The notes under the pieces are model-generated. The model was not told the DNA's origin, did not search any database, and saw only the letters and a list, made by a program, of their open reading frames with translations. A program made the translations under genes and the position numbers. From a virus (taxonomy: Duplodnaviria; Heunggongvirae; Uroviricota; Caudoviricetes), in the IMG/VR virus record IMGVR_UViG_2541047713_000005: a DNA stretch of 4,646 nt. The stretch is one strand, 5' to 3'. Shown here piece after piece: positions 1-4,646 of the stretch; position 1 is the stretch's first letter; the number at the start of each line of letters is the position of its first letter.

Positions 1-1506
1 TCTGCAAGCGCGGCGGCTGCTTCTGCCACTGCATCAGCTAACAGTCAAAAAGCAGCAAAAACCAGTGAAACCAACGCAAAGGTGAGCGAAACAGCGGCTG
101 CGAACTCAGCGAAAGCATCGGCAGCAAGCCAGACGGCAGCTAAAGCAAGCGAAGATGCAGCCAGAGAGTACGCAAGCCAGGCTGCGGAGCCGTATAAATA
201 TGTCTTACAGCCGCTGCCTGATGTGTGGATACCATTTAACGATTCGCTGGATATGATTACGGGCTTTTCGCCGTCATATAAAAAAATTGTTATTGGTGAC
301 GATGAAATAACGATGCCTGGCGACAAGATTGTTAAGTTTAAACGTGCATCGAAAGCAACCTATATTAACAAATCTGGTGTGCTGACAGAGGCTGCCATTG
401 ACGAGCCACGATTTGAACGTGATGGCCTGCTTATTGAGGGGCAAAGAACTAATCTTCTGCTTAATTCAACAAATCCATCTAAATGGAATAAGTCAGGCAA
501 TCTGGAACTCACAGAAATATCCACGGATTCTTTTAATTTTACTTATGGGAGATTTACTGTAAAAGATACTCTTATTGGTCAGACAAGTGCTATTAATATC
601 GTAACGGTTTCTGGCAGTAAAGGGTTTGATGTCACAGGTGATGAAAAATATGTGACCATTTCATGCCGTGTAAGAAGTGATGTTGAAAATGTAAGGTGTC
701 GTTTAAGATTTGAACACCATGATGGTTATACTTACACTTTTTTGGGAGATGCTTACCTCAATTTATCAACACTTGTAATTGATAAAGCTGGTACTGCTGC
801 AGACCGTATTATTGCAAAGGCTGTAAAAGATGAGGTTACTGGTTGGATTTTCTATCAGGCTACAATTAATGCACTAGATACAGAGAGCATGATTGGTGCG
901 ATGGTTCAATACGCTCCTGTAAAAGGTTCAGGCACAGCATCTGGAGACTATCTGGATATCGCAACTCCACAAGTGGAAGGTGGATCAAGTGCTTCGTCAT
1001 TTATTGTAACTGATATAACTGCAAGCACTCGCGCAAGCGATATGGTGACAGTCCCAATCAAGAATAACCTTTATAATCTTCCTTTTACGGTTCTTTGTGA
1101 GGTACATAAGAACTGGTATAAAACGCCAAATGCAGCGCCACGTGTTTTTGATACCGGCGGTCATCAAACCGGAGCGGCTATTATTCTTGGCTTCGGTCGT
1201 TCAACAGATTACGACGGATTTCCTTATTGCGATATTGGAGGAGCTAACAGACGGGTAAACGAAAACGCATCGCTTGAAAAAATGGTTATGGGGATGCGTG
1301 TAAAGTCAGAGCAGTCTACGTGCTCAGTAAGTAACGGGCATATATCCAGCGAAACAAAAACCACATGGTCCTGTATTCAGAACACCGCAATTATCCGTAT
1401 TGGAGGCCAGACTACAGCCGGGTTACGTCATTTATTTGGTCATGTCAGGAATTTCAGAATATGGCACAAGGCATTGACTGATGCTCAGGTGGGGGAGTCA
1501 ATCTAA
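1..1506 (+). CDS. Phage tail fibre protein, 5'-partial (start lies upstream of window); Ala/Ser-rich repeat shaft, distal domain ending in a LamG/concanavalin-A-like signature
   Basis: Frame 1 is open from nt 1 (SASAAAASATASANSQKAAKTSETNAK...) with no stop until TAA at 1504-1506. The 'M' at 82 in the ORF track is an in-frame GTG, not a real start. The N-proximal A/S/T/E/K-rich imperfect repeats are typical of side-tail-fibre shafts. The C-terminus ...LRHLFGHVRNFRIWHKALTDAQV resembles the C-terminal consensus of LamG-like lectin domains (recalled, not searched). GC-rich for the first ~200 nt, AT-rich afterwards. Confidence 0.85.
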   Translation, partial: SASAAAASATASANSQKAAKTSETNAKVSETAAANSAKASAASQTAAKASEDAAREYASQAAEPYKYVLQPLPDVWIPFNDSLDMITGFSPSYKKIVIGDDEITMPGDKIVKFKRASKATYINKSGVLTEAAIDEPRFERDGLLIEGQRTNLLLNSTNPSKWNKSGNLELTEISTDSFNFTYGRFTVKDTLIGQTSAINIVTVSGSKGFDVTGDEKYVTISCRVRSDVENVRCRLRFEHHDGYTYTFLGDAYLNLSTLVIDKAGTAADRIIAKAVKDEVTGWIFYQATINALDTESMIGAMVQYAPVKGSGTASGDYLDIATPQVEGGSSASSFIVTDITASTRASDMVTVPIKNNLYNLPFTVLCEVHKNWYKTPNAAPRVFDTGGHQTGAAIILGFGRSTDYDGFPYCDIGGANRRVNENASLEKMVMGMRVKSEQSTCSVSNGHISSETKTTWSCIQNTAIIRIGGQTTAGLRHLFGHVRNFRIWHKALTDAQVGESI

Positions 1507-1787
1507 TGAAAGATTTAACACTCAAATTTGCCGACAGGGCCGACTTTTCGGCCTTTATGGATAGCACTGGCTATTATGATGACGAGTCGATGCAGGATGA
1601 TATTCTTATTGACGTGATAGGTAACGTGTACAAAGAAACCGGAGAACTGACTGAAGATGGCGAACCGGTATGTGTTAAGGAAGACGGATATTTTGTAAAC
1701 GTGCGCATCATTAATGATTCGCAAATATCGTCATTATTCGATGAATACGTGGTTGCTGTTGAGCATCAACTTCGTGGCTGGATGTGA
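1506..1787 (+). CDS. Hypothetical small acidic protein (93 aa), translationally coupled to the upstream fibre gene; possible fibre chaperone or adaptor
   Basis: ATG at 1506-1508 overlaps the fibre stop (TAATG). Uninterrupted 93-codon frame, acidic composition (many D/E). The downstream gene starts 10 nt after its TGA stop, giving an operon-like arrangement. No family recognised by eye. Confidence 0.6.
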   Translation: MKDLTLKFADRADFSAFMDSTGYYDDESMQDDILIDVIGNVYKETGELTEDGEPVCVKEDGYFVNVRIINDSQISSLFDEYVVAVEHQLRGWM

Positions 1788-1796
1788 GGAAGAAAA

Positions 1797-2837
1797 ATGG
1801 CTACATCGACAGTAATTCCTGATGACATCAAAACGCAAAAATCCGACGTTAGCAAATTAAAAAACGATCAAGGAAGCTACGCAACAAAATTATATGTAGA
1901 CAGCAAAGATAAATTCGTTGGTGACTGCAATGTAATCTATGATCAAAAAACATTGCCAACAACTGGAACTATATTTGGCGGTAAGCTCCGCTTAACTCAC
2001 AGGACTGGTGGAACGGAGGACGCGTATAGTGAACTATATCCCAAAAAAAATATAGATGGTACTAGTAACACAATGGCGCGCCTTAACCTGAACGATAACG
2101 GGACAAACATTTGCTGGGACTTTACCAACCTTTATGGCGGTACGATGATTTTTCCCGGTAGCGGCGGATACCTCAAAATGGGTAACTGCCTTATGTCATA
2201 CAGCAAGCGTGGAAGTAACGCGCTTATTAAATTTGATTACACCGACACATTACAGATCAAATATGCCAATCATGGGTCAACCATGACATTAAACACACAG
2301 GGAACCGCTTATGCTGGTGTTACTGCTCAATTGTGGGGCAACACCAGCCGTCCTGTTGTTTATGAAGTCGGTGTTGATGGTGGCGCTTATATGTTCTATG
2401 CGCAGAAAAATACCGATAACACCTATATGTTAAGCGTTAATGGTGCATGTCATGCCACCGCATTTAACCAGCATTCCGACCGGGATCTGAAAGACAACAT
2501 TCAGGTGATCGATAATGCAACCGACCGCATCCGTAAAATGAACGGCTATACATACACGCTTAAAGAAAACGGTATGCCCTATGCTGGTGTCATTGCACAG
2601 GAAGCTCTGGAAGCAATCCCAGAAGTTGTAGGTTCCGCAATGAAATATCAGGACGGTGCAAGCGGATCGGAAGGTGAAGAAGGTGAACGTTATTACACAG
2701 TAGATTATTCTGGTGTTACTGGCTTGCTTGTTCAGGTAGCCAGAGAGTCAGACGACAGAATAACAGCACTGGAAGAAGAAAACGCAGAATTAAGACAAAG
2801 ATTATCTGCAATTGAGGCGGCGCTTGCGTCTAAATAA
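1797..2837 (+). CDS. Short tail-fibre tip / receptor-binding protein with C-terminal intramolecular chaperone (peptidase S74-type) auto-cleavage domain
   Basis: SD GAGGAAG at 1786-1792, 6 nt before ATG 1797. Residues ~170-215 (AQLWGNTSRPVVYEVGVDGGAYMFYAQKNTDNTYMLSVNGA) resemble the conserved distal segment of P2 gpH / T4 gp37-type fibres (from memory). Residues 227-232 S-D-R-D-L-K (Ser codon at 2475-2477) have the Ser/Lys i,i+5 spacing of the endosialidase-chaperone catalytic dyad. The C-terminal helix ITALEEENAELRQRLSAIEAALASK is typical of this domain. Confidence 0.85.
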   Translation: MATSTVIPDDIKTQKSDVSKLKNDQGSYATKLYVDSKDKFVGDCNVIYDQKTLPTTGTIFGGKLRLTHRTGGTEDAYSELYPKKNIDGTSNTMARLNLNDNGTNICWDFTNLYGGTMIFPGSGGYLKMGNCLMSYSKRGSNALIKFDYTDTLQIKYANHGSTMTLNTQGTAYAGVTAQLWGNTSRPVVYEVGVDGGAYMFYAQKNTDNTYMLSVNGACHATAFNQHSDRDLKDNIQVIDNATDRIRKMNGYTYTLKENGMPYAGVIAQEALEAIPEVVGSAMKYQDGASGSEGEEGERYYTVDYSGVTGLLVQVARESDDRITALEEENAELRQRLSAIEAALASK

Positions 2838-2843
2838 TATTAA

Positions 2844-2864
2844 GGGGCCGAGCGCCCCGTTTTA
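2844..2864 (+). terminator. Putative intrinsic terminator after the fibre operon
   Basis: GGGGC (2844-2848) / GCCCC (2854-2858), an all-GC 5-bp stem with a 5-nt loop, followed by G-TTTT-A (2859-2864), 7 nt downstream of the TAA stop at 2835-2837. The stem is short, hence moderate confidence. Confidence 0.45.
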
Positions 2865-2879
2865 TTGGGTAGGATGAAA

Positions 2880-3173
2880 ATGGATATAACACCTTTCCTT
2901 CATGCGCTTTGTGCTGTGGCTGCGCAGCTACTGATTGGTCTTTTTACCGGGAACTGGGCTTACGGGGCGATAGCCGGTTGTACGTTCTTCATTGCGCGTG
3001 AACACACCCAGGCAGAATATCGCTGGATTGAAATGTTCGGGCATGGCAAGCGAATGAATATGCCGTGGTGGGGCGGTTTTGATCCGCGCGCGTGGGATGT
3101 GGCAAGCCTGATGGATTTTGCTGTGCCGGTGGTGGCGTGTCTGCTGGTCTGGCTGTTGGTTAATCGTGGGTGA
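2880..3173 (+). CDS. Hypothetical small integral membrane protein (~97 aa, 2-3 predicted TM segments)
   Basis: ORF open from TTG 2865; in-frame ATGs at 2874 and 2880. ATG 2880 has an AGGA (2871-2874) 5 nt upstream and is preferred. Hydrophobic stretches FLHALCAVAAQLLIGLF, AYGAIAGCTFFIA and LMDFAVPVVACLLVWLLV. About 55% GC, unlike the AT-rich fibre genes. The antisense ORFs over this region lack such features. Confidence 0.55.
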   Translation: MDITPFLHALCAVAAQLLIGLFTGNWAYGAIAGCTFFIAREHTQAEYRWIEMFGHGKRMNMPWWGGFDPRAWDVASLMDFAVPVVACLLVWLLVNRG

Positions 3174-3183
3174 AAAAAGGTGA

Positions 3184-3312
3184 GCTGTATATGCAACGGA
3201 GGAAGAAACTCCGTTGCTGGAAGCCTGGAAGAAGTATCGGGTGTTGCTGAACCGTGTTGATACATCAACTGCACCTGATATTGAGTGGCCTACGAACCCT
3301 GTCAGGGAGTAA
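3184..3312 (+). pseudogene. tfa: 3' remnant of a tail fibre assembly gene (tfa); no start codon, ~42 codons
   Basis: Frame 1 reads [42 protein letters not shown] directly after a TGA at 3181-3183, with no in-frame ATG/GTG/TTG. It matches the C-terminus of lambda-type Tfa (…[26 protein letters not shown]…, recalled). Relative to copy 2 it carries a 9-nt in-frame deletion. Confidence 0.75.
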
Positions 3313-3326
3313 TCATTGGGATTATG

Positions 3327-3359
3327 CCGCAGCACGTCTTAAGCAAGAACGTGCTGCGG
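3327..3359. terminator. Perfect 11-bp inverted repeat (hairpin) between convergent genes; possible bidirectional terminator or RNA-stability element
   Basis: CCGCAGCACGT (3327-3337), 11-nt loop, ACGTGCTGCGG (3349-3359), which are exact reverse complements. It lies 15 nt after the tfa-remnant stop and 8 nt beyond the methyltransferase stop (TAG, complement of 3367-3369). No U-tract immediately follows on either strand, so it is not a canonical intrinsic terminator. Confidence 0.4.
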
Positions 3360-3366
3360 TTGGATG

Positions 3367-4035
3367 CTATTTTTTCCCTGAAGCGGAAAACATTACTACA
3401 GTACCTTGAACCTTGGTTTTAACATTCTCGAAATGCTCTGAGAGTATATGTGTTAAGCCTTCTTCGGAATCTTTTGTGTTTGAAAAGATGCCTTTCTGAT
3501 TGTAAATGCGCATCAGTTTTTGACCGAAGCTATTGTGCACAACTCCATCGCCAAGAATTGTGGCTCCGTATAGAGTTCCATCGTCAGTTAAGGCCTGCGC
3601 CGCATTGCGTATTACACAGCTTTTTGTAGATATATTTCCAGGCAGGCAGTGAAGAAGGTAAAACATGGAAATGGAATCAAATTGACCATGTAACGCCGCG
3701 GGATAAGGTTCAAAAACATCATGGCTAATTTTATGTTTAATTTTTGATTCCCCAGCCCTTGTAGATGCCGCGTTCAGGCTAGCTTCGTTCAAATCCATTA
3801 AAGATATCAGACTACTCTCAGGTACGTGAGTAAGGTAAAACCCAGTTCCAACACCAATATCCAGATGGTTGTTACCTACATGTTCCAGAAAGTGTGGAAG
3901 AAGGTGTTCCTTTGTAGGACATCCCCATGCAAGCCGATTTGATACTCCCAAAACCCACCAGTCATAAAGCTTTAGGGTAAGTGGTGTGTAAATTTTAGCC
4001 CCATCATCTGTGTTTTTTTTCATTGATTTCACCAT
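3367..4035 (-). CDS. Class I (Rossmann-fold) SAM-dependent methyltransferase, probably not a DNA methyltransferase
   Basis: Motif I LDIGVGTGFY (the hh-D-h-G-x-G-x-G SAM-binding loop), a downstream acidic residue in ISLMDLNE, and a motif II-like FDSISMFYLLHCLP. No D/N/S-PP-Y/F/W motif IV. Stop TAG is the complement of 3367-3369. Two candidate starts: ATG at 4035 (no SD) and ATG at 4023 (GGTGA 5 nt upstream), the latter giving 218 aa and more likely. About 40% GC. Confidence 0.85.
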   Translation of the reverse strand: MVKSMKKNTDDGAKIYTPLTLKLYDWWVLGVSNRLAWGCPTKEHLLPHFLEHVGNNHLDIGVGTGFYLTHVPESSLISLMDLNEASLNAASTRAGESKIKHKISHDVFEPYPAALHGQFDSISMFYLLHCLPGNISTKSCVIRNAAQALTDDGTLYGATILGDGVVHNSFGQKLMRIYNQKGIFSNTKDSEEGLTHILSEHFENVKTKVQGTVVMFSASGKK

Positions 4036-4091: not shown

Positions 4092-4361
4092 ATGCTGCCG
4101 CAGCATAGCGATATTGAAATAGCCTGGTATGCTTCGATACAGCAGGAGCCGAATGGCTGGAAGACCGTCACCACACAGTTCTACATCCAGGAATTCAGTG
4201 AGTATATTGCGCCACTGCAGGATGCTGTAGATCTGGAAATCGCAACGGAGGAAGAAAGATCGTTGCTGGAGGCATGGAATAAATATCGGGTATTGTTGAA
4301 TCGTGTTGATACATCAACTGTACCTGATATTGAGTGGCCTGCAAATCCTGTCAGGGAGTAA
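4092..4361 (+). CDS. tfa: Tail fibre assembly protein, N-terminally truncated (89 aa; corresponds to the C-terminal half of lambda-type Tfa)
   Basis: SD AAGGGG 4-5 nt before ATG 4092. The C-terminus [53 protein letters not shown] aligns closely with the lambda Tfa C-terminus (…[53 protein letters not shown], from memory). Lambda-type Tfa is ~190 aa, so the N-terminal domain is missing. Confidence 0.8.
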
Positions 4362-4412
4362 TCATTGGGATTATGCCGCAGACACGTCGTATGCAGGAAC
4401 GTGCTGCGGTTA
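4219..4412 (+). repeat. Direct repeat copy 2 (tfa 3' end plus degenerate hairpin)
   Basis: Partner of 3178..3362. The hairpin at 4376..4409 keeps both arms but has one bulged A (4382) and a loop that differs at 3 of 11 positions. Confidence 0.85.
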
Positions 4413-4475
4413 GTTTGTGAGCTTTCGATAGTGGTTGTTATTTTTGCCCTTATTTGTTCCGGAGGCCATGGTTCA

Positions 4476-4646
4476 ATGGTCCGTCTGCCCCCTGTGGTGA
4501 TGTCAGCAAAATCAGCCACTGCGCGAACCACAATAGCCCGGGAAGATGCTGAAGATCACCAGGTAAAGCTGTCAGCGCAGAAACTGGAAGAACTGCTCGC
4601 ATCAATGGTTAAGGATGAGGTTGATCGCAATGATGGGATTTATTGA
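4476..4646 (+). CDS. Hypothetical small protein (56 aa from ATG 4476; the frame is open from TTG 4365)
   Basis: Frame ends at TGA 4644-4646. The 5' part of the maximal ORF overlaps the hairpin and tfa repeat, so an internal start is more plausible: ATG 4476 (GGAGG at 4461-4465, 10-nt spacing) or ATG 4500. The product is charged and probably helical (…AQKLEELLASMVKDEVDRNDGIY). No family recognised. Confidence 0.4.
   Translation: MVRLPPVVMSAKSATARTTIAREDAEDHQVKLSAQKLEELLASMVKDEVDRNDGIY

What the first reader, a model, noticed from the sequence alone, without database searches (positions are those of the whole stretch)
2865..3173. GC-rich small membrane protein inserted between the fibre operon and the tfa remnant
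A ~97-aa polytopic membrane protein follows the fibre terminator, and its stop codon abuts the start-less tfa remnant, as if it replaced the 5' part of tfa. Its ~55% GC contrasts with the AT-rich fibre genes. Small membrane proteins at this position in prophages are plausible superinfection-exclusion or receptor-masking factors.
Basis: inference. Interest (0 to 1): 0.5.

Follow-up and report, generated by a model that had tools for sequence, protein, structure and literature searches.

The report
Conserved small phage membrane protein, function unknown
The ORF is a real, widely conserved gene for a 97-residue membrane protein that sits at the end of swappable tail-fibre cassettes in temperate phages, but published RNA-seq shows this exact arrangement is silent in a lysogen, so the proposed exclusion or receptor-masking role has no support and its function is unknown.

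Summary
The ORF is real. It runs from ATG 2880 to the stop at 3171-3173 (97 aa) and is identical to RefSeq WP_000355601.1, a "hypothetical protein". It matches PHROG family 1443 (function unknown) over its full length and has no Pfam, NCBIfam, PADLOC or PDB match. It is under purifying selection (dN/dS about 0.15-0.23) and is found in 1915 of 5426 complete E. coli genomes. AlphaFold2 gives three helices (pLDDT 91).

It is not a lone insertion. It is the last gene of a fibre cassette (stf C-terminus, orf93, optional S74 fibre, orf97). Relatives follow fibre or tailspike genes in lambdoid, SSU5-like, P22-like and P2/HP1-like phages. Others are chromosomal in Aeromonas and sphingomonads, or lie among early or accessory genes of other phages.

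Two results count against a fibre-specific mask. Orf97 stays 95-100% identical while the neighbouring fibre proteins fall to 38-55%. In prophage Tritos, which has the same gene and terminator base for base, published RNA-seq shows background transcription in all five conditions.

Best reading: a read-through-transcribed accessory membrane protein acting on a conserved host component. Mechanism unknown. Interest is modest.

The parts
2880..3173 (+). orf97: CDS for a 97-aa, three-helix membrane protein (PHROG 1443; identical to WP_000355601.1). The finding's start at 2865 is an upstream in-frame TTG.
2871..2874 (+). AGGA Shine-Dalgarno, 5 nt upstream of ATG 2880
   Evidence: Read directly from the sequence. 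The RefSeq start agrees.
2844..2865 (+). Intrinsic terminator of the S74 fibre gene (stem-loop GGGGC-CGAGC-GCCCC, then GTTTTAT). In the identical Tritos locus transcription stops here in the lysogen.
   Evidence: identity to Tritos; RNA-seq tables of PMC9928086
1797..2837 (+). 346-aa tail fibre with a C-terminal Peptidase_S74 intramolecular chaperone domain. It is an optional member of the cassette.
   Evidence: absent in phage 21, Perceval and E. coli B Rac
1506..1787 (+). orf93 (PHROG 1361, function unknown). Its start overlaps the stf stop codon. By position it is a possible fibre accessory protein.
1..1506 (+). 3' part of the side tail fibre gene stf, which runs off the window's 5' end. 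It matches PHROG 1419/5939 and the NCBIfam 'head spike fiber' domain.
3193..3312 (+). Start-less remnant of tfa (the last ~40 codons). It marks the right-hand recombination joint of the cassette and is the left copy of a ~170-nt direct repeat (3193-3361 and 4242-4411).

Best explanation
Shown:

- orf97 (2880-3173) encodes a conserved ~97-aa integral membrane protein of an uncharacterised family (PHROG 1443).
- The model has three helices. The family-wide invariant core is H8, G29, R40-E41, Q44-A45-E46, R48, R58, W72, D79 and P83.
- It is the last gene of a mobile receptor-binding-protein cassette (stf C-terminus, orf93, optional S74 fibre, orf97).

Inferred from comparing loci: the cassette is exchanged among temperate phages by recombination in conserved flanks. 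These are the stf N-terminus on the left, and orf97 itself or the tfa 3' end on the right.

Shown or strongly indicated: it has no promoter of its own. It is transcribed only when RNA polymerase runs on from the upstream fibre genes. Here the S74 fibre terminator insulates it, and the identical locus is silent in a lysogen.

Inferred:

- It is made late in lytic growth, when Q-modified polymerase ignores terminators.
- It is an accessory protein, neither structural nor an assembly factor.
- It acts at the cytoplasmic membrane on a host component conserved across Proteobacteria, through its invariant polar and aromatic segment.
- It is not a mask tuned to the fibre's receptor.

My single best guess for the activity is a generic conditioning of the infected cell's membrane. 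This could be blocking secondary DNA entry or modulating a conserved envelope machine. I put only about 0.2-0.25 on that step. The stated confidence refers to the anatomical, transcriptional and 'not a receptor mask' parts.
For: - Family and conservation: PHROG 1443 matched full-length at E 5.8e-59. There are 575 clusters at 90% identity and 439 at 50%, and all listed members are stand-alone proteins of about 60-150 aa. Invariant motif. Purifying selection. AlphaFold2 pLDDT 91.
- Cassette position: the gene lies after stf/orf93 with or without the S74 fibre in E. coli prophages, phage 21, Tritos, Perceval and an SSU5-like plasmid. It lies after a P22-type tailspike in Gally. It follows, or overlaps the stop of, P2/HP1-type fibre or tfa genes in Aeromonas, Leclercia and phiHAP-1. 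It lies after tail, fibre or spike genes in Comamonas, Pantoea, Chelativorans and Desulfovibrio. Gaps to the upstream gene are mostly -4 to +27 nt.
- Decoupling from fibre specificity: orf97 is 95-100% identical, against 38-55% for orf93 and 45-52% for the stf C-terminus.
- Transcription: no sigma-70-like site upstream. Tritos is identical over the gene and the terminator. TRITO_22 is at background in five conditions while TRITO_19-21 are induced. PERCE_24 and GALLYPH_17 rise together with their upstream fibre or spike genes. None of the three passes the paper's moron cut-off in LB (PMC9928086).
- Dispensable for virions: siphophage HC6 has an intact S74-type fibre gene but only a decayed fragment of this family just after it.
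Against: - No experiment addresses the protein, and late-phase expression is inferred rather than measured.
- Some RNA-seq reads shared between the Tritos and Perceval copies (282/294 nt identical; longest identical run 83 nt) may have been discarded by the paper's mapping-quality filter, which would lower both counts.
- Topology is unresolved. The positive-inside rule puts the conserved loop in the cytoplasm for most members (K+R 5.6 in the loop against 0.05 in the turn). Arg-rich C-tails of the chromosomal copies argue the opposite. The phage 21 record cites TMHMM with only 2 TMDs, N-in and C-in.
- Family members in a P1-like plasmid, an Aeromonas podophage and a jumbo phage are not next to fibre genes, so the fibre linkage may be hitch-hiking.
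- The Perceval and Gally copies are transcribed in the lysogen inside macrophages, so a lysogen role is possible in other arrangements.
Confidence: 0.55

Rival explanations
1. Superinfection exclusion or receptor masking expressed from the prophage. The membrane protein protects the lysogen by blocking adsorption or DNA entry of incoming phages.
For: Genes placed next to receptor-binding genes that protect against the same receptor are an established pattern (Cor, Llp; from my own knowledge). The protein is membrane-embedded. The Perceval and Gally homologues are transcribed in LF82 lysogens inside macrophages (log2FC 3.0 and 4.9). Some family members sit among early genes of lytic Aeromonas phages, as T4 imm does.
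Against: The identical Tritos gene is at background in five lysogen conditions. No promoter is predicted. The gene does not co-vary with the fibre. There is no lipobox, and C11 is not conserved. There is no PADLOC hit and no annotated PHROG or Pfam hit. Invariant residues shared with chromosomal genes of Aeromonas and sphingomonads are unusual for fast-evolving exclusion proteins.
Confidence: 0.15
2. Passenger or host-derived housekeeping membrane protein. On this reading the gene does something for cells generally and is kept in phages mainly as a conserved flank that promotes fibre-cassette exchange, with little phage-specific function.
For: There are chromosomal copies in conserved non-phage contexts: pirin-X-RIO1 in several Aeromonas species, and ligA-X, PrmA or cyclophilin neighbours in sphingomonads. 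Near-identical nucleotide sequence lies next to highly diverged fibre genes, which is what a recombination anchor looks like. A decayed copy is found in HC6.
Against: Purifying selection acts on the phage copies themselves (dN/dS 0.15-0.23). The gene is retained intact in about 1900 E. coli genomes. In P2/HP1-type phages and several other non-E. coli prophage loci it abuts or overlaps the stop of the upstream tail gene.
Confidence: 0.15
3. Lysogenic-conversion factor that alters a surface glycan, for example a small inhibitor or partner of an O-antigen polymerase, ligase or chain-length regulator, like the small hydrophobic Iap of phage D3.
For: In P22-like Gally it occupies the slot between tailspike and int, which from my own knowledge is where P22 carries gtrABC. 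S74-type fibres and tailspikes usually bind polysaccharides (from my own knowledge). The conserved segment is rich in tryptophan.
Against: There is no match to GtrA/B, Oac, Wzy or any glycan enzyme family. It is silent in the Tritos lysogen. It is conserved as a chromosomal gene in sphingomonads, which (from my own knowledge) lack LPS O-antigen. It is identical next to fibres of different specificity.
Confidence: 0.07
4. Lysis-related membrane protein (holin, antiholin or another late membrane effector).
For: It is about 100 aa with up to three transmembrane helices, and transcription is apparently tied to late genes. In Comamonas prophages it sits between gpJ and small genes that might be a lysis cassette; those genes were not annotated here.
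Against: It has no charged C-terminal tail (it ends in NRG). It has a 35-residue invariant polar loop, which is unlike holins (from my own knowledge). No holin PHROG or Pfam family matches. In lambdoid and P22-like phages the lysis cassette is elsewhere (from my own knowledge). There are cellular homologues.
Confidence: 0.05
5. Membrane-anchored helper for maturation or assembly of the upstream fibre or spike.
For: Tight physical linkage to fibre genes, at the position where tfa usually lies.
Against: Nearly the same protein follows unrelated receptor-binding proteins (lambda-type stf, P22 tailspike, P2 fibre, S74 fibre). An intact S74-type fibre gene occurs with only a decayed copy in HC6, and fibre-gene homologues occur without the gene in other phages. 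Other members are far from any fibre gene.
Confidence: 0.05

Closest known systems
PHROG family phrog_1443 (function unknown); RefSeq WP_000355601.1 and WP_000355360.1; phage 21 CPT_21_24 'putative membrane protein'
   Same: The window protein matches the PHROG profile over its full length (1-96 of 97; E 5.8e-59). It is 100% identical to WP_000355601.1 and 96% identical to the phage 21 protein.
   Different: Nothing. This is the same family, and it has no described function.
Receptor-blocking lipoproteins encoded next to receptor-binding genes (T5 Llp; phi80/N15/HK022 Cor)
   Same: A small envelope protein encoded directly beside the genes that determine host range.
   Different: Orf97 has no lipobox or signal peptidase II site. 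It is a polytopic membrane protein, probably of the inner membrane (inferred). It shows no sequence similarity to these proteins and no co-variation with the fibre, and it is not transcribed in the lysogen in this arrangement.
Inner-membrane superinfection-exclusion proteins (T4 Imm, P22 SieA, HK97 gp15)
   Same: A small phage-encoded membrane protein. HK97 gp15 is likewise embedded in a tail operon (from my own knowledge and PMC3594210, listed but not read).
   Different: No homology was detected. Those proteins are expressed from the prophage or early in infection, whereas orf97 follows fibre-gene transcription. Orf97 also has conserved cellular homologues.
Morons in the sense of Hendrix and colleagues (autonomous promoter-gene-terminator units)
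   Same: GC content foreign to its neighbours (54% against 43%), located at the end of the tail operon, with variable cargo beyond it.
   Different: No promoter of its own was predicted or observed. It fails the expression criterion used for morons in LF82.
Tail fibre assembly proteins (Tfa, Pfam Caudo_TAP PF02413)
   Same: It occupies the gene position just after the fibre gene.
   Different: No Caudo_TAP match, and it is hydrophobic and membrane-embedded. The true tfa fragment lies downstream at 3193-3312.

Membership tests
PHROG phrog_1443 | Full-length match to the family profile HMM | tested here: met
   E 5.8e-59, residues 1-96 on profile positions 1-96 of 97
Integral membrane protein (polytopic) | At least two hydrophobic helices long enough to span a bilayer | tested here: met
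   Kyte-Doolittle 19-residue peaks of 1.86 (around residue 12) and 2.32 (around residue 85), with a weaker segment at 26-39. AlphaFold2 helices 4-23, 26-53 and 74-96 at pLDDT 91. The number of spans (2 or 3) and the orientation are unresolved.
Prophage-expressed superinfection-exclusion factor | Transcribed in the lysogen | tested here: not met
   Identical locus in LF82 Tritos: TRITO_22 at background in 5 conditions (PMC9928086 S1/S4). Homologues in other arrangements (PERCE_24, GALLYPH_17) are transcribed in macrophages.
Prophage-expressed superinfection-exclusion factor | Homology to a described exclusion or defence protein | tested here: not met
   No PADLOC, Pfam or NCBIfam hit, and the PHROG hit is to an unannotated family
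Prophage-expressed superinfection-exclusion factor | Reduces plating, adsorption or DNA entry of challenge phages | not testable with these tools
   Needs plasmid expression and a phage panel
Receptor-masking lipoproteins (Cor/Llp type) | Lipoprotein signal peptide with a lipobox cysteine | tested here: not met
   The N-terminus MDITPFLHALC has no basic n-region. H-A-L-C does not fit the lipobox consensus, and C11 is not conserved.
Receptor-masking lipoproteins (Cor/Llp type) | Specificity linked to the adjacent receptor-binding protein | tested here: not met
   Orf97 is 95-100% identical next to orf93 at 38-55% and stf C-termini at 45-52% identity
Moron (autonomous transcription unit) | Base composition different from its neighbours | tested here: met
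   54.4% GC against 42-43%
Moron (autonomous transcription unit) | Own promoter, expressed independently of phage late genes | tested here: not met
   No sigma-70-like site in 2600-3500. Not above prophage background in LF82.
Holins (class I, three TMDs) | Charged hydrophilic C-terminal tail, a place in the lysis cassette, and a holin family match | tested here: not met
   The C-terminus is ...LLVNRG. The neighbours are fibre genes. No holin Pfam or PHROG hit.
Tail fibre assembly protein (Caudo_TAP) | Match to PF02413 | tested here: not met
   No hit for orf97. The hits are at 3184-3309 and 4092-4358.
O-antigen conversion proteins (GtrA/GtrB/Oac/Wzy-type) | Match to the respective Pfam or NCBIfam models | tested here: not met
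   No family at E <= 0.1 except a sub-threshold PhoR hit (E 0.059)

The most novel reading that the evidence does not exclude
PHROG 1443 proteins could be a previously unrecognised class of phage accessory factor. They would be captured from a conserved proteobacterial membrane protein. Their invariant H8 / R40-E41 / Q44-A45-E46 / R48 / R58 / W72 / D79 face would bind or modify a universal envelope or membrane component. Phages would carry them with host-range cassettes as a specificity-independent way to condition the infected cell, for example a generic block to secondary DNA entry or control of a conserved envelope machine.
Probability: 0.2. Interest if true: 0.6.

Novelty: already known. 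Interest (0 to 1): 0.3.

Why it matters
The gene is very common: 35% of complete E. coli genomes carry it, typically in two copies, including E. coli B, ST131 and the AIEC strain LF82. It is strikingly conserved, and it marks the right-hand edge of the most frequently exchanged host-range module of temperate coliphages. Knowing its function would fill a gap in the annotation of lambdoid, P22-like and P2-like prophages. It could also matter to people who engineer fibre cassettes, who need to know whether to carry it along. For now the practical result is negative but useful. It should not be annotated as an exclusion or receptor-masking gene. In this arrangement it is transcriptionally insulated in the lysogen.

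Tried and rejected
Searches for a known relative:
- Pfam, NCBIfam and PADLOC scans gave no family. The only hit was a sub-threshold PhoR match at E 0.059.
- A PDB sequence profile search gave nothing meaningful.
- An exhaustive profile search of 1.84 billion representatives found only stand-alone proteins of about 60-150 aa among the 150 listed. There were no fusions that could hint at function.

Alternative readings of the ORF:
- Antisense ORFs (2928-3335 and 2960-3274, minus strand) are rejected as the real gene. The substitution pattern fits the sense frame.
- Lipoprotein, holin, Tfa and Gtr memberships are rejected (see the membership tests).
- A visual -35/-10 candidate (TTGAGG at 2812-2817, 17 nt, TAATAT at 2835-2840) did not pass the scan threshold. 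It is also contradicted by the Tritos RNA-seq.

Context and literature:
- Neighbours of the chromosomal homologues are unrelated housekeeping genes (pirin, RIO1, lipid A acyltransferases, ligA, PrmA, cyclophilin, porin/nifJ) and gave no functional hint.
- Literature searches by identifier (WP_000355601, phrog_1443, FIG00639861, UMO75439) and by topic found no functional study. In the passages I read of the LF82 in-vivo CRISPRi preprint, this gene is not mentioned.
- A resemblance of MPWWGGFDxRxW plus flanking histidines to the WWD haem-handling motif of CcmC was only recalled from memory. It was not tested and is not claimed.

Full report
**Observation**

The window holds an ORF at 2865-3173 on the plus strand. 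The upstream-most start is a TTG. The credible start is ATG 2880, preceded by AGGA at 2871-2874. That gives 97 aa and is the start used by RefSeq for the 100% identical gene WP_000355601.1 in E. coli Es_ST80.

- The ORF follows a good intrinsic terminator, with a stem-loop at 2844-2858 and then GTTTTATT. This closes a 346-aa tail fibre gene carrying a Peptidase_S74 intramolecular chaperone domain.
- Nineteen nucleotides after its stop begins the last ~40 codons of a tail-fibre-assembly gene, with no start (Caudo_TAP profile positions 95-130 of 131).
- GC content is 54.4%, against 42-43% in the three fibre-module genes.
- Hydropathy shows two strong hydrophobic segments and one weaker one. AlphaFold2, run with a 26-sequence alignment, gives helices 4-23, 26-53 and 74-96 at mean pLDDT 91.

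**Is it a gene?**

An ORF of this length is not significant alone, since two longer antisense ORFs overlap it. The sense frame is nonetheless clearly the coding one.

- The protein matches PHROG 1443 over its whole length (E 5.8e-59).
- It has 575 homologue clusters at 90% identity and 439 at 50% identity. All listed members are stand-alone proteins of about 60-150 aa.
- Codon-level comparison gives dN/dS of 0.15-0.23 for moderately diverged copies. For distant ones, synonymous sites are saturated (pS about 0.8) with pN only 0.25-0.34.
- A core of residues is 91-99% conserved in 154 full-length members: H8, G29, R40, E41, Q44, A45, E46, R48, R58, W72, D79 and P83. The 69 copies from genome-scan and look-up loci, drawn from about 50 species, also share TQAEYRWI and MPWWGG.D.

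**Where it sits**

The DNA is found in 1915 of 5426 complete E. coli genomes, with a median of two copies per genome. The exact junction of S74 fibre, terminator and orf97 occurs in 705 genomes.

In E. coli the gene is always the last gene of one module. That module is stf with a C-terminal 'head spike fibre' domain, then orf93, then an optional second fibre (S74-type or a 234-aa type), then orf97. It is seen in:

- lambdoid prophages at the Qin and Rac sites, in ST131 and in IHE3034;
- phages 2G7b, 21, Tritos and Perceval;
- SSU5-like phage-plasmids.

What lies beyond it varies: tfa remnant plus pin, sitABCD, a reverse transcriptase with a SLATT protein, or a methyltransferase. E. coli B Rac has stf, orf93, orf97, tfa remnant and pinR. 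From memory, K-12 Rac has stfR, tfaR and pinR at that place. The start-less tfa is therefore best read as the right-hand joint of a cassette replacement, not as the scar of a single-gene insertion.

Outside E. coli:

- Relatives follow a P22-type tailspike in Gally.
- They abut or overlap the stop of P2/HP1-type fibre or tfa genes in Aeromonas salmonicida, Leclercia and phiHAP-1.
- They follow tail, fibre or spike genes in Comamonas, Pantoea, Chelativorans and Desulfovibrio prophages.
- Gaps to the upstream gene are mostly -4 to +27 nt.

The linkage to fibre genes is not universal.

- Several Aeromonas species carry the gene between pirin and a RIO1 kinase gene.
- Sphingomonads carry it next to ligA, PrmA or cyclophilin genes.
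- A P1-like plasmid, an Aeromonas podophage and jumbo phage PS1 carry it among small early or accessory genes.
- Siphophage HC6 keeps only a decayed fragment right after its S74-type fibre gene.

Co-variation. A receptor mask should co-vary with the receptor-binding protein. It does not. Across eight E. coli-type loci orf97 is 95-100% identical. Against the window, six of the seven other loci have orf93 at only 38-55% identity and all but 2G7b have the last 400 residues of stf at 45-52%. The close relative 2G7b, and orf93 of L011, are higher.

Expression in the lysogen. An exclusion factor should be expressed in the lysogen. Published RNA-seq of E. coli LF82 (PMC9928086) happens to cover three family members in one strain.

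- Tritos has the window's architecture. Its orf97 and its intergenic terminator region are identical to the window base for base (294/294).
- Its gene TRITO_22 stays at log2(fpkm+5) 2.8-3.8 (raw counts 1-17) in LB, in two further conditions (B1, B6) that I did not see defined, and in macrophages at two time points. The macrophage 6 h versus LB comparison gives log2FC 0.21 with q 0.22.
- TRITO_19-21 (stf, orf93, S74 fibre) rise to 5.0-8.3 in macrophages. Transcription coming from upstream therefore stops at the terminator, and no promoter fires in between. This agrees with the negative promoter scan.
- In Perceval, which has no terminator, PERCE_24 rises together with stf and orf93 (log2FC 3.0). 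In Gally the gene rises with the tailspike (log2FC 4.9).
- None of the three reaches the paper's moron cut-off in LB.
- One caveat: the Tritos and Perceval copies differ at only 12 of 294 positions. Some reads may have been filtered as ambiguous.

Similarity to known systems. There is no lipobox and no hit in PADLOC, Pfam or NCBIfam.

**What it most likely is**

Shown:
- a conserved membrane protein of PHROG 1443;
- the terminal gene of a mobile fibre cassette;
- no independent transcription, and insulation by a terminator in this locus.

Inferred:
- It is expressed late in lytic growth, by Q-antiterminated read-through.
- It is accessory rather than structural. This rests on the decayed copy in HC6, on fibre homologues found without it in other phages, and on the same protein following unrelated receptor-binding proteins.
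- It acts on something conserved across Proteobacteria. This rests on residues that stay invariant from coliphages to sphingomonad chromosomes.

The activity itself is unknown. My best guess is a generic, specificity-independent conditioning of the infected cell's membrane. I hold this at low probability (about 0.2-0.25).

Topology is unresolved. Positive-charge counts favour a cytoplasmic conserved loop in most members. The Arg-rich C-tails of the chromosomal copies favour the opposite, as does the TMHMM note in the phage 21 record.

Rival readings and the results that would refute each are listed separately. They are lysogen-expressed exclusion, a passenger or recombination anchor, glycan conversion, lysis, and fibre assembly.

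**Comparison with known systems and novelty**

The sequence is already catalogued: RefSeq hypothetical proteins, PHROG 1443, and 'putative membrane protein' in phage 21. It has no described function. I found no paper addressing it.

Its position resembles Cor/Llp-type and Imm/SieA/gp15-type protection genes and classical morons. It fails the features of each that could be tested here. Structure searches gave only generic helical matches.

I therefore rate it 'already known' as an object and unknown in function. Interest is modest (0.3). It is common, conserved and easy to test, but nothing here is surprising, and the specific functional proposal is not supported.

Noticed in passing
window 3193-3361 and 4242-4411 (bracketing 3367-4035 on the minus strand and 4092-4361 on the plus strand): A ~170-nt direct repeat (90% identical) covers the 3' end of tfa and, by eye, a downstream hairpin (about 3325-3357). 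The two copies bracket a minus-strand class I SAM methyltransferase gene (PHROG 2132, function unknown) and a second, 89-aa tfa. Related loci (Es_ST80, E. coli B Rac, Tritos) go straight from the tfa remnant to pin. This looks like a cargo cassette inserted by recombination in the conserved tfa end.
   Followed up: partly
E. coli LF82 prophages Tritos (L085 755-4458) and Perceval (L086 647-3294); equivalent to window 1-2837: In the published LF82 RNA-seq (PMC9928086 S1/S4), the stf, orf93 and S74-fibre genes rise roughly 8- to 200-fold inside macrophages. J and the other late genes stay at or near background. This suggests an internal promoter, perhaps counter-silenced, in or near the AT-rich fibre genes.
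   Followed up: partly
L082 (Escherichia phage HC6) 3465-3620: Directly after an 859-aa fibre gene whose C-terminus looks S74-like by eye (no domain scan was run) lies an unannotated, decayed fragment of the orf97 family (…RRRANIPWWGGFDWRAWDLPSLLD). So the gene appears to have travelled with the fibre cassette and then been lost.
   Followed up: partly
window 1506-1787: orf93 (PHROG 1361, function unknown; acidic, 93 aa) has a start that overlaps the stf stop. It accompanies the stf head-spike-fibre domain in every E. coli locus examined and diverges along with it (38-55% identity in most loci). By position it is a plausible dedicated fibre chaperone.
   Followed up: partly
L003, L012, L013, L017, L019 (Aeromonas); L070, L072, L056 (sphingomonads): There are chromosomal, non-prophage copies of the family in conserved housekeeping contexts: pirin-X-RIO1 kinase in Aeromonas, and ligA-X, PrmA or cyclophilin neighbours in sphingomonads. 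Many have Arg-rich C-terminal extensions.
   Followed up: partly
window 4365-4646: A plus-strand ORF that ends at the window's last base. Its C-terminal 60 residues match tail-fibre PHROGs (7703 and 1141). It lies just after the second tfa and was not examined further.
   Followed up: no
L081 (E. coli IHE3034) 5436-7335: In this K1 strain the cargo slot just beyond orf97 holds a reverse-transcriptase gene and a SLATT-domain gene, a likely anti-phage defence pair. This shows that the site beyond orf97 is a cargo hotspot.
   Followed up: no
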